Shown: piece after piece, positions 5,811-62,311 of the stretch
How the letters are laid out: the number at the start of each line of letters is the position of its first letter
Position numbering within the stretch: the first letter of the stretch is position 1
Assembly (NCBI GenBank): GCA_951406725.2
Contig: OX597823.1
Location: 86,056,001-86,120,000 of the forward strand
DNA from: Octopus vulgaris
Lineage: Eukaryota
Direction of reading: 5' to 3'
DNA length: 64,000 nucleotides
Notes under the pieces: model-generated
Databases searched by the model: none
What the model was told of the DNA's origin: nothing
What the model saw: only the letters and a program-made list of their open reading frames with translations
Made by a program: the position numbers and the translations under genes

Positions 5811-7361
5811 AAGCTTGTGTGTGTGTGTGTGTGTGTGTGTGTGTGTGTGTGTAATTTCCTTCGGACTGTCTGATCTTCCTTCCTTTTCCTCGTCTCTGGC
5901 GTTTTCATCTTTCCAACGAAGGGTCATCTAAAACTTTCACTGAGCGTCAATCTAATATACTCACTGTGTACGACTATCTTTCTTCTTTTATCTTTTACCT
6001 GTTTTCGTCATTAGACTGCGGCCATGCTGGGGCACCGCCTTGAAGGTGCTTTCAAGTCGATGAAATCGACCACACACTTACTTTTTTCTAAGCCGGTCCT
6101 TCTTCTATCGGCCACTTTACCCGAACCATTAGGCTACTTGGACGAAAACACACAAACACCGGTTGTAAAACGGTGCGGGGAGGGGGGGGACACACGGAAA
6201 TAAATACACACACATAGATAGATAGATAGATAGATAGATGATAGATAGATGGATAGATAGATAGATAGATAGATAGATAGATAGATAGATAGATAGATAG
6301 ATAGATTGATTGATAGACAGATAGAAAGATAAATAGATATATAGACAGATTGATAGATAAAGATCCATATGTCTGTGTATGAGTATATGTGTGTATAGAA
6401 TGTATGTATGTACGTTTTTGTAGGTCTGTGAATAGCCAAGGAGATTAATATTTTATATATAGCAAAATATAACGTGAAAATAGTCATAAAGTCTTTTATC
6501 CTAATATACTAAGCTATCCAGAAGTTGAGCTTGGAGAAAATCGTTGATGGCTGCTTAAACCTCCAAATGTACACACCTAGAATTGTATGAAAAATCCCTG
6601 CAAAATCTCATCTAATAATCGTTTTCGTCGAGTTACGAAAAAATTTTAAAAAGCATATTTTCTACTTTTGTGATCAGTTTAGGAGACTTGCAACACAATA
6701 TAATCTCTCAATAAACTGTATAACGTACACTGTACTCGTAAATCAGAAGGAAATAACATCGTGACAATTTATAGGGTGGTGGTGTGGTGGTGGTGGTTTT
6801 GCTGCTGCTGCTGCTGCTGCTGCTGTCGCTGTTGGTGTATGTGAGTAATTGAGTAAGTGTATGGTGAATGTTTAATAATGTGTGTCAGTTTAGGTGTATA
6901 TCGCCGCAAAGAATCAATAGGAAATAGCTGCTTCATGCATTAAATAAACAAAAATCATCTCTTGGCTACTCTCCAATTTATGAACAGCGATGGGTGCCAA
7001 ATCGTACGTAAACGATGACTGAAAGATATGGGATCTGTGATGAAGGATTTTATGACAAAACGGACAATGAAACGTATGTATTGCAAGAGACTGAAACAAG
7101 AACTGCGTTACGTTAATTGCAATTTAGATTAACAGTAACGAGACATACATGCACACACACACACACACACACACACACACACACACACACAATATATATA
7201 TATATATATATATATAAATAAAATACAGTGTACATTTAAACACATTAAGAAGCTTCCATCATAGGAATCTTTTACACTAGAAAGAAAGCTAACGTCCAAA
7301 CCACTAATTAGGAATAAATTCTCGAAGGGAATGAAAGATAAGAAACATTTACCATCTCTTT

Positions 7362-7430
7362 CCTGCACCATGGTTTCTGATTTATTTTAGTAAACAAAAT
7401 AATTTACCAGGCGAAGTCTTCATCAGCAGG
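7362..7430 (-). ncRNA. Hammerhead ribozyme motif, probably inactive (GUG triplet)
   Basis: CCUG-CUGAUGA-(irregular stem II)-GAA-ACCAUGGU-G-CAGG. Lies in an ~410-bp insert (7217-7626) between two (TA)n tracts. Confidence 0.6.
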
Positions 7431-8489
7431 GACGCCAAAGATTAAATAAATAAACAATGAGGCCAATCCAGCATGTGTCTCTTGCTTATACATTAAATTT
7501 TTTTTTAATCTACCGCGCAAGTGCAGTCTTTTTTCTCGGCAGCAAAATGATGGTGGCAAATTCTTTGAACGAAGAATTTGCCGGCATCAAATCCACCGCA
7601 CAAGCGCGGTGGATATGAAAAGAGTTTATATATATATATATATATATATATATATATATATATATATATATATATATATATATATATATATATATATATA
7701 TTTATTTATATCCATGCCATATATTAAATGAATATGACGTGTATGTGTATATTGGGTGATATATATATATATATATATATGTAGTTAATCCAAACATGAA
7801 AACACAAAAGAAAACAACAACAACGCTAGTTTCCGTCTACCAAATCCACCCACAAGGCTTTGGTCGGCCCGAGGCTATAGTAGATGACACTTGCCCAAGG
7901 TGCCACGCAGTGGGACTGAACCCGGAACCACGTGGTTCGTAAACAAGCTACTTACCACACAGCCGCATGCATCCATACATACGCTGAGACACATAGGTGC
8001 TAGTGTGTGTGTGTGCATCTTTGTGCTTGTCCCCTTCGACCAGATGACAACTGGTGTTGGTTTGTTTATCATCGTAATTTTCTAGTTTGAGAAAAGAAAG
8101 AAAAAAAGAACAAATGGACTAGATACCAGTTGGACGAAATCACAACGAAATAGCCCAACAGTTATACGACACCGAGTTAAGACTGATACAGACAGCTACG
8201 CTGAGTCATTTCTTTTCCTGTTTTCTTTTTTCTTTTTTTCTTTTCAGAGAAATACCAGTGATTAGACACAGCTTAATATTGTTTGTCGACCGGAAAGTTG
8301 ATTATGTATAGCGCTTTGAAACACCTGTGCTGCTCATTCATATCAGACATAGACACAAACAAAGAATATCTCAAGTCTTAATAAACAAATATAGAAAATA
8401 CAAAAGATGTAAGCAGTAACCTGCTTAAGAGTATGAAAGAAAGCAAAAAAAAAAAAAACATTGATCAGGCGTTTCACTAAATCATTATA

Positions 8490-8930
8490 CTCTTACTCTC
8501 TCTCTCTCTCTCTCTCTCTTTTACTTGTTTCAGTCATTTGACTGTGGCCATGCTGGGGCACCGCCTTTAGTCGAGCGATTCGACCGCAGGACTTATTCTT
8601 TGTAAGCCTTGTACTTATTCTACCGGTCTCTTTTGCCGAACCGCTAAGTTACGGGGACGTAAACACACCAGCATCGGTTGTCAAGCGATGTTTGGGGGAC
8701 AAACACAGACACACAAACATATACACACACACACACACATATATATATATATATATACATACATATATACGACGGGCTTCTTTCAGTTTCCGTCTACCAA
8801 ATCCACTCACAAGGCTTTGGTCGGCCCGAGGTTATAGACTCTTGTCCAAGGTGCCACGCAGTGGGACTGAACCTGGAACCATGTGGTTCGTAAGCAGGCT
8901 ACTTTCCACACACCCACTCCTACGCCTATA
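8490..8930 (-). mobile_element. SINE family B
   Basis: Reverse-complement match. Partial copies also at ~5985-6200 and 7828-7965. Confidence 0.85.
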
Positions 8931-59600: not shown

Positions 59601-60130
59601 ATGTATGTATATTTATATTTTTATGTGTACGTATATGTATATATCTTTTTTGCATGCCGTTTGCATCCGTTTTTGTAAGCTTGCATGTGGGACTGCATTT
59701 ATGTATGTATATTTTTGAGTGCATGTGTATTTCTAAGTTCATGTATTATGTATACACATGTACACTCGTATATATATTTGTACACATAAATGTATATACG
59801 AGTATATGCTTGTTTCTATGAGTGATATTTTGCGGGGCGAACATTGCCATCTTGTTTAGAAGTTCGCTTCGCAACCACGTGGTTTTCAGTTCACTCCTAT
59901 CGCTTGGCACCTTTGATGTATCATCTACAATAACCCCAGGTTGATCAATGACTTGTCTATGAATTTGTGAAACCGAAACTCTATGGAAGCCGGTCTTATA
60001 TATATATATATATATATATATATATATATATATATATATATATATACATATATATATACATACATACATACATACATACAGGTGTTGAACAAATAAACGG
60101 TAACACCTTAATATTTCAAAAAAATTATTT

Positions 60131-61161
60131 TAATATCAGGTTGGACCGCCTTTGCCAGTAATTACAGCTTGAATTTTACGAGGTATGGACTCGTACAAAG
60201 TTTGAATTGCTTCCAAAGGAATTTTTGTCCATTCTTCAGCTAAAACAAGTTTCCAGTTCTTGTAGTGATGATGGAGGATAACGACTCCTTAATTGTTTTT
60301 TCTAAAATGCACCATAATTATTCGATAATATTGAGATCTGGGGACTGTGGTAACCAGATAAGATGTTCAACTTCACTAGAATATTCCTCCTATCATTCAG
60401 TAACAACATTACCTGTGTGAATTGGTGCATTATCATCCTGAAAAATTGCGTTTCCCTCCGGTAATAGATCCGCAATCAATAGGATGAATTTTATTCGATA
60501 AAATGCTTAAATAGTCTTGACTATTAATTCTGCCTAGAAGAGGAACCCTTGGGCCTGCGTATTTCCAAGATATATTCCTCCAGATCATCACATATCCTCC
60601 TCCATGTTTAACAGTTGGAAAAAGGCTGTCTGGGTCAAATGCTTCTTTTGGCCTGTCACCACACGTATATTCGGTCGGTGGTCAGAAATAAGGTGAAGGA
60701 TCACTCATCCGAGAAAATAACATTCTTCCACTGAACTAGGGACCAATTCTGTAGGTTTTTACTCTACTCTAAATGCTTTTCAACGTTTGTTTTTGAAAGT
60801 AGTGATTTTCTGATTACAGCCCTCCCATGAAATCCAGCTTTGTGCAGCTTCCGGCGAACAGTTTTTGTGGAAGCTGGGTTCTCGAAGTGGTCATTAAGAC
60901 CTGTAGTAATTTTGGGAGCTGTACTTTTGTGATCCTTTTAAAAATTCGTGTGAGAGCCCGACGGTCCCTATCTGAGAATTTTGCTTTTCTTTTAGAGCTT
61001 TGTTTCGACGAGAAGGGGTGTCCCTCTTTCTCAAAGGCTGTCATTGCTTTCGAGACAGTACTTCTTGATACACCAAATATTTCGGCTGCTTTCCTTGTGC
61101 TAGTGCCTGCCATACGAGCACCACCAATTTGACTTCTTTGAAAGTCCGATAGATCTGTCAT
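60131..61161 (-). pseudogene. Degenerate Tc1 transposase
   Basis: MTDLSDFQRSQIGGARMAG..AEIFGVSRSTVSK (HTH). Later frames give W..VIFSDE, FQDDNAPIH, PQSPDLNIIE and a GGPT end. Confidence 0.85.
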
Positions 61162-61295
61162 TTTAACGAATTTTAATTACCTTTTCCTGATGATATCTGA
61201 AAAGAAACAGCAATTTTAGCAAAACATATTAAGCAACACTAGTAATAAATAAATAAAAAACGTAAAAATATACAAGCGATGAAGAATTATGAACA

Positions 61296-62311
61296 TTATT
61301 TACATTATTTACATTTGACAGATATTTGTCCTCATCTTGTTTGTTGTTAACATGTTTCGGCTGATATACCCTCCAGCCTTCAGCAGGTGTCTTGGGGGAA
61401 ATTTCGAACCTGGGTTCTCCTTCCTAAGGTATTTTTCGATGTTATTATTATTATTAGGGAATGAGAACCCAGGTTCGAAATTTCCCCAAGACACCCAATT
61501 TCTTTATTAGCCACAAGGGCCCAAACATAGAGGGGGACAATAGAGCCTGATTGGAGTCAGACACACAATGATTATATGACTTGTAAAATTTTAAAAAATA
61601 TAATGAAATCGAATAAAATCGAATGAGCTACAACAAGGACGAAATACAAACATGAGATGAAGCAGAGAGATGGCTTACGCTCCGACCCCACGAGCCCCAT
61701 TCTCCTACTGAAACTTTTATATGCAGACTTATGACATGTTCACGAGGAATCTTTCATTCCCAGCACCCTTGCAATACGCAACCATCTTTCTTTGAACATT
61801 TTCTTTGACAGGCATCTTCTTTCCAGCCTCACCTTCCTTTTAAGGTGGAAGATTAAATATCTCACCAACCCAAGACCGGAGTTGAGGTTGCCTGTCGCCA
61901 AACCATTCATTCGCGACTTCCATACCACCTCTTTCGCTATTGCTACTACTGCGAGAAAACATTGCTTACCTTCCTTCGTGAGGAAATCCGGCGGGTCAAT
62001 TTTTACGATTGACTCAGACGACAGCTGTACTCTTCCCGAACCTGACAGTAGATGTTCTGCATAAACCCACACTTCAGACACTCCCGGATACTGAACAATA
62101 GCGTGCAGGACAGTTTCTCTATCCCGTCCGCATCTTGGACAGTCGGCAGTGGTGGTTCAACCGTGTCAATGCCAGCTTATCTCGAACGGGTAAGGCTCCT
62201 CGGTAACATTGCCAGGCCAGGGATGAAGGATGGAGGGTATTTCAGCTGAGACGTTGTGTTAACAAGAAATAATATGAGAATAAATATGTCAAATGTAAAT
62301 AATGTAAATAA
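61296..62311. mobile_element. Palindromic hammerhead-bearing element split by a LINE fragment
   Basis: Left arm 61296-61427; right arm 61454-61495 plus 62222-62311. Two-arm consensus ACAC-CUGAUGA-A-GGCUG..CAGCC-GAA-ACGU-U-GUGU; each arm is individually degenerate. Confidence 0.6.
61497..62221 (-). mobile_element. L1/Tx1-type LINE 3' fragment
   Basis: CPRCGRDRETVLHAIVQY zinc-knuckle remnant followed by ..IAKEVVWKSR..FKERW; 3' UTR ends in AATAAAGAAAA. Confidence 0.75.

What the first reader, a model, noticed from the sequence alone, without database searches (positions are those of the whole stretch)
7217..62311. About eight unrelated hammerhead families within 64 kb, nearly all in or against (TA)n
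Seen: hammerhead-topology motifs with different stems at 7362(-), 12353/24104/24604, 14236/28198/36555, 14589/15135, 16007/40373/48220, 20382/47937, 39719/39994 and 61350/62222. Most have a self-complementary or nearly self-complementary stem III (ACGUACGU, ACAAUUGU, ACCAUGGU, ACGU, ACGAUUGU), 4-6 bp stem I and GUA/GUU sites. No Penelope RT or GIY-YIG ORF is present in the window. Inference: a diverse set of non-autonomous, ribozyme-bearing, TA-microsatellite-targeting retroelements that standard repeat annotation would leave unknown. At this density the genome could hold very large numbers of self-cleaving motifs, able to cut host pre-mRNAs.
Basis: partly seen in the sequence, partly recalled or inferred. 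Interest (0 to 1): 0.85.

Follow-up and report, generated by a model that had tools for sequence, protein, structure and literature searches.

The report
Retroelement hammerheads, including a rearranged form
The flagged motifs are real but mostly decayed self-cutting RNA tags left by known jumping genes, while two overlooked repeats in the same stretch carry a rearranged version of that RNA, which may explain why one large group of these jumping genes was thought to lack it.

Summary
The motifs are real: 7 sites pass a type I hammerhead descriptor with at most one defect, against 0.09 per shuffle. But 11 of the 18 listed sites are broken or partial, and the 18 reduce to 14 insertions. They are 3' ends or pseudo-LTRs of Penelope-like elements (PLEs) in (TA)n, a known kind. 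Six families resemble Hydra-clade hammerheads and two resemble minimal ones. Family D is a high-copy, head-to-tail 546-nt non-coding unit, retrozyme-like. No PLE ORF is in the window, so non-autonomy is shown only for D.

The new result lies outside the listed sites. Two further repeat families (12870-12948 +; 35354-35426 - and copies) hold every hammerhead part in a non-circular order, with the stem II partner strand upstream, so the chain is opened between A9 and G10.1 (1 of 1744 shuffles this strong). One shares 14 nt with octopus Naiad consensuses. Read by eye, 17 of 25 displayed Naiad 3'-region contexts parse as non-circularly permuted hammerheads, 10 in this split form. Naiads were reported to lack canonical hammerheads. 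Cleavage is untested.

The parts
7362..7430 (-). Family A type I hammerhead remnant (ACCAUGGU palindrome; G at 17, 2-bp stem II), in a 406-nt segment 7221-7626 between two TA arrays; single copy
12353..12430 (+). Family B 3' piece; core and stem II present, stem I 5' strand replaced by a SINE at the junction
12870..12948 (+).
   Evidence: 14 nt shared with Naiad_Obim and Naiad_Ovul 3' ends
14190..14323 (-). Family C 3' piece, minimal hammerhead style (CG palindrome, bulged A); core CUAUCGA
14398..15419 (-). Family D insertion: 546-nt non-coding unit in partial tandem (14398-14873 identical to 14944-15419), (TA)n on both sides
14589..14640 (-). Family D intact type I hammerhead, ACGUACGU palindrome, GUA site
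15135..15186 (-). Family D intact type I hammerhead, second copy, 546 nt from the first
15923..16043 (-). Family E 3' piece, truncated inside the core
20380..20438 (+). Family F hammerhead remnant (ACUCUGAGU, GUA; core with two mismatches)
24069..24699 (.). Family B inverted pair (84.5% identical arms): 24104-24164(-) near-intact with a bulged C in stem II; the (+) arm with core at 24609 has CAAA for GAAA
28153..28286 (-). Family C 3' piece; core CUGUGGA
35270..36550 (-).
35354..35426 (-). Family I split hammerhead with no defect: 10-strand GGCUGG, predicted cut after 35405 (AUC), stems I, II and III of 6 bp each, extra 7-bp L1/L3 helix, core CUGAAGA last
36180..36252 (-). Family I split hammerhead, second copy, core A6 changed and stem II shortened
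36554..36630 (+). Family C 3' half only (no core), fused to family I at a short microhomology
37396..37549 (-). Family I 154-nt 3' piece between two (TA)n runs; S, G and C blocks intact, upstream 10-strand cut off
39688..40117 (.). Family G inverted pair with intact type I hammerheads at 39719-39809(-) and 39994-40084(+); long stem II, ACGAUUGU
40373..40415 (-). Family E hammerhead with U.U at 10.1-11.1 (the usual Hydra-clade state); the element body runs on to about 43940, is interrupted by a Tc1 transposon and ends in an inverted 3' tip at 43940-44004
47923..47981 (-). Family F hammerhead remnant; core CCAACGA
48220..48263 (-). Family E hammerhead, A.G at 10.1-11.1, N7 differs from the 40373 copy; element 48130 to about 49805
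61296..62311 (.). Family H inverted pair, minimal hammerhead style: (-) arm 61296-61440 with a deletion; (+) arm split at the core by a LINE-like fragment (about 61498-62223)

Best explanation
All ten families are RNA ends of Penelope-like retroelements (PLEs) or of short non-coding elements that borrow PLE enzymes, inserted at (TA)n. The eight listed families carry type I hammerheads whose palindromic stem III is built to pair between two copies, so only a tandem (pseudo-LTR) transcript is cut, once per unit. The released unit-length RNA, probably circularised, is reverse-transcribed from a nick in (TA)n, primed at a TA-rich spot inside the unit, and read past its start. That gives partial tandems (D, I), inverted pairs (B, G, H, E) and many 5'-truncated, decaying solo ends. 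Families K and I use the same catalytic core wired differently: 10-strand, then cleavage-site block, then 11-strand/GAAA block, then 2-strand/CUGANGA. This is a circular permutation of the type-SGC/CSG hammerhead, opened between A9 and G10.1, with 5-6-bp stems that need no partner copy. It is the Naiad-clade solution to the same processing step. Shown: motifs, pairings, arrangement, (TA)n association, head-to-tail D unit. Inferred: clade assignment, cleavage, circularisation and priming.
For: Enrichment over shuffles: type I 7 vs 0.09. Split form: two unrelated families with 15 and 17 Watson-Crick pairs, against 1 of 1744 shuffles reaching 15. SGC-order scan: 0 of 1522 shuffles reached the observed SGC score. 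(TA)n downstream for 12 of 14 insertions. D: 3615 and 708 contigs laid in two DNA-type runs; the only joint in table 5 goes back 546 in all 4 runs, and contigs cross the internal unit junction. Both ends of the D insertion fall in TA-rich spots of the unit. U.U or G-C closing pairs and 8-9-nt palindromes match the Hydra-clade table, nearly all of whose members prefer (TA)n. K shares GGGGCAGCUGAUGA with Naiad_Obim and Naiad_Ovul, whose 3' ends parse by eye in the same split order with a different stem II. By eye, 17 of 25 displayed non-coding Naiad contexts parse as non-circular permutations: 10 split, 6 CSG, 1 SGC. Type-SGC and CSG ribozymes cleave in vitro (PMC10085705).
Against: No cleavage or RNA evidence: only contigs were available. 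No PLE ORF is linked to any family in the window. 11 of 18 listed sites are broken, and families C and F share core deviations in both core-bearing copies (A6U; U4C). In D the absence of variants at the 25 critical positions is not significant (34 variable places in 546 nt, P about 0.2). The only K copy lacks G12 and its L1/L3 helix is weak (-2.0 kcal/mol); nested folding prefers a competing hairpin over K's core. A break between A9 and G10.1 contradicts the block assumption of PMC10085705. The split descriptor was written after seeing the motifs. The Naiad parses are by eye; 8 of 25 contexts parse only partly or not at all, and I saw no such motif in 2 of the 3 Clytia Naiad 3' ends read in full.
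Confidence: 0.75

Rival explanations
1. K and I are ordinary type-SGC hammerheads: stem II is made with a strand just downstream of the core after a 1-5-nt insertion, and the upstream complement is incidental or a regulatory decoy.
For: A 4-bp downstream partner exists in both window families (I: GGCU after 5 nt; K: 4 bp after 1 or 3 nt). The 37396-37549 copy of I lacks the upstream strand yet keeps this partner. One published Naiad context (part 17) parses by eye as true SGC.
Against: The upstream partner is longer and stronger in both families (6 bp, -7.9 and -8.3 kcal/mol, vs 0.0 to -4.2 downstream). PMC10085705 reports no known insertion over 1-2 nt at this place. In the seven non-octopus split Naiad contexts other than the mismatched A. 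acuminata one I found by eye no downstream partner but a perfect 4-6-bp upstream one.
Confidence: 0.12
2. The permuted motifs are conserved structures that no longer cleave on their own: they act as binding or priming signals for the element's RT-endonuclease, or cut only with a protein helper. The listed type I motifs are mostly inert fossils.
For: Most window copies are broken. Minimal PLE hammerheads were inactive as monomers and weak as dimers in vitro (PMC4209133). Element copies extend 40-200 nt past the predicted cut, so the copied RNA was uncut or re-ligated.
Against: The complete catalytic core, an NUH site and the G10.1-C11.1 pair are kept across unrelated families whose stems differ entirely, which a binding signal would not need.
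Confidence: 0.1
3. The split and SGC readings are chance pairings found by a flexible, after-the-fact search.
For: The descriptors were written after inspecting the sequence; 47 of 1744 shuffles give some hit to the split descriptor.
Against: Only 1 of 1744 shuffles reaches the score that both families reach. The same order recurs in published Naiad consensuses that were not used to notice the first motif.
Confidence: 0.03

Closest known systems
Minimal type I hammerheads of Penelope-like elements (Cervera and de la Pena 2014, PMC4209133)
   Same: Type I order, palindromic stem III, 4-5-bp stem I, bulged base after A9 (families C, H), many families per genome, mostly single truncated motifs, some inverted pairs 100-700 bp apart.
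   Different: No linked ORF seen here; families C and F share core deviations; six families have longer (8-9-nt) palindromes.
Hydra-clade PLE hammerheads (Craig et al. 2021, PMC8557442, Files S1 and S2)
   Same: (TA)n preference, 8-9-nt palindromic stem III, U.U or G-C at 10.1-11.1, GUA/GUU sites (families A, B, D, E, F, G); an Octopus member is listed.
   Different: None of the window's hammerheads matches the listed Hydra-1_oBim motif in its stems; clade membership rests on RNA style alone, not on an RT.
Non-LTR retrozymes (Cervera and de la Pena 2020, PMC7229834; Li et al. 2026, bioRxiv 10.64898/2026.07.22.740005)
   Same: Family D: non-coding head-to-tail unit with one type I hammerhead per unit, very high copy; such elements are proposed to derive from PLE pseudo-LTRs.
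   Different: The 546-nt unit is longer than the 220-353-nt units in the passages read; the hammerhead is PLE-type rather than canonical; circular RNA is not shown.
Non-circularly permuted hammerheads, types SGC and CSG (Eckert et al. 2023, PMC10085705)
   Same: Block order site-GAAA-core, short linker (1-4 nt here, typically 3) between stems I and II, a fourth helix tying the far ends of stems I and II.
   Different: Here the stem II 10-strand is detached from the core and placed first, which that paper's three-block scheme excludes. Those ribozymes came from metatranscriptomes and metagenomes, with none of these two types in genomes of known organisms; these sit in animal retroelements.
Naiad clade of PLEs (Craig et al. 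2021, PMC8557442)
   Same: (TA)n preference in cephalopods; K shares 14 nt and the whole motif order with the octopus Naiad 3' ends; the authors noted 'HHR_core' and 'HHR_half_core' that did not fit their descriptors.
   Different: The paper reports no canonical hammerhead in Naiads. K and I hold no Naiad ORF; family I motifs gave 0 text matches in the supplement.

Membership tests
Type I hammerhead ribozyme | Core CUGANGA, GAAA, UH with stems I-III in C-G-S order | tested here: met
   Met for 7 of 18 sites with at most one defect (families B, D, E, G); not met for the other 11
Type I hammerhead ribozyme | Covariation or conservation of core and stems within families | tested here: inconclusive
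   D variants fall at N17 and in or beside stem II, none at 25 critical positions, P about 0.2; N7 varies in E
Type I hammerhead ribozyme | Site-specific self-cleavage | not testable with these tools
   Only contigs were listed; no raw RNA reads
Penelope-like element | PLE reverse transcriptase plus GIY-YIG ORF | tested here: not met
   None in the window; the genome was not available, so linkage elsewhere is open
Penelope-like element | Partial tandems (pseudo-LTRs) and inverted 5'-truncated copies | tested here: met
   D and I tandems; B, G, H inverted pairs; E inverted tip
Penelope-like element | Hammerhead near the 3' end; (TA)n insertion bias | tested here: met
   12 of 14 insertions vs 20% background
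Hydra clade | Hydra-type RT with C-terminal endonuclease | not testable with these tools
   No ORF; only the RNA style matches File S2
Non-LTR retrozyme (family D) | Non-coding tandem unit with a type I hammerhead in each unit | tested here: met
   546-nt unit, joint going back 546 in 4 of 4 runs, longest ATG frame 49 codons
Non-LTR retrozyme (family D) | Expressed as circular RNA | tested here: inconclusive
   The joint also stands in the two DNA-type runs; the RNA label of X1 and X8 is a guess
Type-SGC hammerhead (families K, I) | Blocks in the order S, G, C with stems I and III | tested here: met
   K lacks G12 in its one copy
Type-SGC hammerhead (families K, I) | Stem II strand directly after CUGANGA (at most 1-2 nt inserted) | tested here: not met
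   Best partner is upstream; downstream partners are 4 bp and weak or need 3-5 inserted nt
Type-SGC hammerhead (families K, I) | Fourth helix joining the far ends of stems I and II | tested here: inconclusive
   Strong in I (-12.9 kcal/mol), weak in K (-2.0)
Naiad clade (families K, I) | N-terminal GIY-YIG, CxC linker, C-terminal RT | tested here: not met
   No such ORF in the window; the link is the shared 3' motif only

The most novel reading that the evidence does not exclude
Many Naiad retroelements, reported to lack hammerheads, cut their RNA with non-circularly permuted hammerheads. The commonest form seen is a topology outside the six accepted permutations, in which the chain enters at G10.1 and leaves at A9, so that in a tandem or circular transcript the whole element is in effect an insertion inside the catalytic junction. 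These work as monomers, are carried by non-coding Naiad satellites such as families K and I, and could be abundant self-cleaving motifs in invertebrate genomes that every current descriptor misses.
Probability: 0.6. Interest if true: 0.88.

Novelty: new variant of a known kind. Interest (0 to 1): 0.72.

Why it matters
The listed motifs add little beyond a dense example of known PLE hammerheads. The split form matters for three reasons. It would make directly testable the open point in PMC8557442 that Naiads spread to high copy without hammerheads, and it would explain the 'core' and 'half-core' motifs noted there. It would place non-circularly permuted hammerheads, so far from environmental sequence, in named animal retroelements. 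It would show that the A9-G10.1 link is dispensable, widening the known topologies of the best-studied small ribozyme. Monomer-competent motifs, unlike the palindromic ones, are also the class that could cut host transcripts from solo insertions. The test is one short in vitro transcription.

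Tried and rejected
No genome is held, so genome-wide counts, family consensuses and intron strand bias could not be computed. Rfam was uninformative: the E-value scan's 150 listed rows were microsatellite or hairpin matches, 212 rows were not shown; 0 at gathering; no hammerhead in three small stretches. Pattern scans for relatives found nothing usable: family I motif 0 in metagenomes; family K pattern 2 metagenome loci, both rejected as chance matches in coding-looking DNA without the S block, 0 in viral contigs; family C motif 0 in prokaryote genomes. 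No RNA holder was listed for family D. Type I and type III readings of family I were rejected because the downstream GAAU block does not pair with the cleavage-site strand; HDV-like, twister and pistol readings were considered by eye from recalled consensuses and dropped. A CSG-order hit at 33227 was rejected as AT-rich chance (10 Watson-Crick pairs). The idea that the D tandem arose by a template jump between truncated copies was rejected because other copies cross the same junction. Minus-strand bias of near-intact sites (8 of 9) is not interpretable without a host gene. Look-ups of earlier findings by place and by sequence returned nothing.

Full report
What was checked. The window is 35% G+C animal DNA dense in microsatellites, with two abundant SINE-like families and Tc1/mariner and LINE remnants. 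It looks octopus-like; that label is an inference from recalled SINE sequence and from the Naiad match below, not a tool result. No genome is held.

The listed motifs. A strict type I scan returned 5 of the 18 sites. A graded scan found 4 sites with no defect and 7 with at most one, against 0.007 and 0.09 in 150 local dinucleotide shuffles. These 7 belong to families D, G, B and E. The other 11 are broken, as detailed in the observation check. Tandems and inverted pairs reduce the 18 sites to 14 insertions. A (TA)n run lies within 200 nt downstream of 14 of 18 sites and 12 of 14 insertions, against 20% of background positions. No PLE ORF was found in 148 of 196 non-repetitive frames scanned against Pfam or by motif scans. 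Rfam sees none of these motifs.

What they are. PMC4209133 (parts 1-2 of 4 read) describes this situation: thousands of variable minimal hammerheads per metazoan genome in several families, mostly single truncated motifs, with palindromic stem III, built for dimers, inactive as a monomer and weak as multimers in vitro. Families C and H fit that minimal style; both core-bearing C copies have U at position 6 and both F copies C at position 4, variants expected to slow cleavage (PMC3088659, passages). File S2 of PMC8557442 shows that Hydra-clade PLE hammerheads have 8-9-nt palindromes and often U.U at 10.1-11.1, and File S1 lists (TA)n for 26 of 27 Hydra-clade families, one from Octopus bimaculoides. 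Families A, B, D, E, F and G have this style, and the U.U counted as a defect at 40373 is the normal state there. Partial tandems and inverted copies are the arrangements described for PLEs (PMC8557442, passages).

Family D. The unit 14872-15417 is held at half its words or more by 17 of 24 listed runs. Laid on four runs, it drew 46, 3615, 6 and 708 contigs. The only joint in table 5 goes back 546 in all four runs, and contigs cross the internal unit junction. So head-to-tail order is a family trait, and the unit has no long frame. Variants inside the hammerhead fall at N17 and in or beside stem II; none hits the 25 critical positions, but with 34 variable places in 546 nt this has P about 0.2. 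The joint stands in DNA-type runs too, so circular RNA is not shown. This is the non-LTR retrozyme plan (PMC7229834, passages), which a 2026 preprint derives from PLE pseudo-LTRs and finds excluded from introns and exons (10.64898/2026.07.22.740005, part 1 of 5 and passages; its supplements were not seen).

The overlooked families. An 826-nt unit with a 441-nt pseudo-LTR at 35270-36550 and a piece at 37396-37549 (family I) has CUGAAGA but no type I fold. A scan allowing the three hammerhead blocks in any order hit only these copies, in site-GAAA-core order; 12 of 1000 shuffles gave any hit and 1 an equally strong one. Allowing one defect added an unrelated family K at 12892-12953 in the same order, and one weak AT-rich hit that I rejected; 0 of 1522 shuffles reached the observed SGC score and 16 did so in any order. 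Type-SGC hammerheads are known and cleave (PMC10085705; parts 1, 3, 4, 5 and 6 of 8 read, supplement not read), but family I needed a 5-nt insertion after A9, which that paper says is unknown.

The split form. Looking up the octopus Naiad consensuses in File S5 of PMC8557442 showed that Naiad_Obim and Naiad_Ovul end with the same GGGGCAGCUGAUGA as family K. By eye, their stem II partner lies upstream of the cleavage block (GACACC with GGUGUC). The window families do the same: GGAAGG with CCUUCC in K, and GGCUGG with UCAGCC in I. A descriptor for this order (10-strand, S, G, core) hits K and two copies of I and nothing else in the window; 47 of 1744 shuffles give any hit and 1 reaches the 15 Watson-Crick pairs that both families reach or exceed. 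The linkers after the 10-strand and before the 2-strand pair with each other, strongly in I and weakly in K; this corresponds to the fourth helix of type SGC. The arrangement is thus a circular permutation of SGC/CSG opened between A9 and G10.1, the position where a bulged base is common.

Published Naiads. Text searches for the four core spellings displayed 57 places in the Naiad file, of which I judged 25 to be non-coding 3'-region contexts; later places of two spellings and cores cut by line ends were not displayed. By eye, 10 parse in the split order (Beroe with only a 2-bp stem I, Clytia Naiad-3, three Acropora of which one has two mismatches, two in part 12, one in part 19, two Octopus; about 7 independent). 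Six parse as CSG (three Nippostrongylus and three others), 1 as SGC, 2 partly and 6 not at all. In the split cases the stems differ entirely while the core, the UH site and G10.1-C11.1 are kept. Against universality, I saw no such motif in the 3' ends of Clytia Naiad-1 and Naiad-2 read in full, and an earlier unchecked note reports a twister-like motif in a clam Naiad. The authors had flagged 'HHR_core' and 'HHR_half_core' in 16 of 54 Naiads in the File S1 sheet that did not fit their descriptors.

Is it in print? Eight library searches returned no paper whose listing, or whose text where read, places non-circularly permuted hammerheads in Naiads or describes a natural break between A9 and G10.1; 'type-SGC' occurs in one paper only. 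The library lacks most subscription papers, including Lunse et al. 2017, which I saw only as a reference line.

Mechanism. Shown: motif anatomy, enrichment, arrangement, (TA)n association, the head-to-tail D unit. Inferred: a tandem transcript is cut once per unit, the unit RNA is circularised and copied by a PLE enzyme from a nick in (TA)n, priming at a TA-rich spot and running past the start. Palindromic type I motifs restrict cutting to tandems; the split motifs have 5-6-bp stems and should work alone. The head-to-head fusion of families I and C suggests that one enzyme can switch between templates of both kinds. Weak points: no RNA evidence, no linked ORF, K's single copy lacks G12, nested folding favours a competing hairpin in K, the split descriptor was written after the fact, and the Naiad tally is by eye.

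Verdict. The finding as written is a dense example of a known kind, with intactness and risk to host RNA overstated. The same stretch holds a candidate new hammerhead topology tied to Naiad retroelements, which is cheap to test and bears on a stated open question.

Noticed in passing
window 36540-36560: Family I (split hammerhead) and family C (type I) are fused head-to-head at a short microhomology between (TA)n runs, suggesting template switching between elements with different ribozyme types.
   Followed up: partly
window 36050-36082 (-) and 12840-12870 (+): Family I's unit starts with a short G+C-rich stretch and a GTAAGT donor-like site followed by a long pyrimidine-rich tract; family K has a similar tract and an acceptor-like site that overlaps the start of its ribozyme. 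PLE 5' introns next to hammerheads are described in PMC4209133.
   Followed up: no
window 61498-62223: A LINE-like 3' fragment (CCHC-type C-terminal frame at 61740-62156, minus strand; L1/Tx1 label recalled, no Pfam hit) sits inside the hammerhead core of family H; about 45 nt of its end (61495-61540) also occurs within the 184-nt SINE tandem at 52151-52195.
   Followed up: partly
window 41214-42890, 50029-51210, 37592-38357, 60079-61200: Tc1/mariner transposon copies or remnants (Pfam HTH_Tnp_Tc3_2, Transposase_1, DDE_3); the first interrupts a family E element.
   Followed up: no
window 32042-32467 (-) and 38842-39222 (+): Short frames resembling C-termini of RTE-type LINE proteins (label recalled; no Pfam hit).
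   Followed up: no
window 75-125 (+) and 35055-35110 (+): Two more possible decayed type I hammerheads; neither passes the descriptors.
   Followed up: no
window 20570-20710: A long inverted repeat directly after a (TA)n run, without a recognisable hammerhead; may be another head-to-head PLE end.
   Followed up: no
PMC8557442 File S5, Clytia Naiad-1 and Naiad-2 3' ends: Both share a conserved structured-looking motif that is not a hammerhead; it may be another ribozyme class.
   Followed up: no
whole window: 8 of 9 near-intact ribozyme sites lie on the minus strand; no host exon was identified, so this could not be related to transcription.
   Followed up: partly
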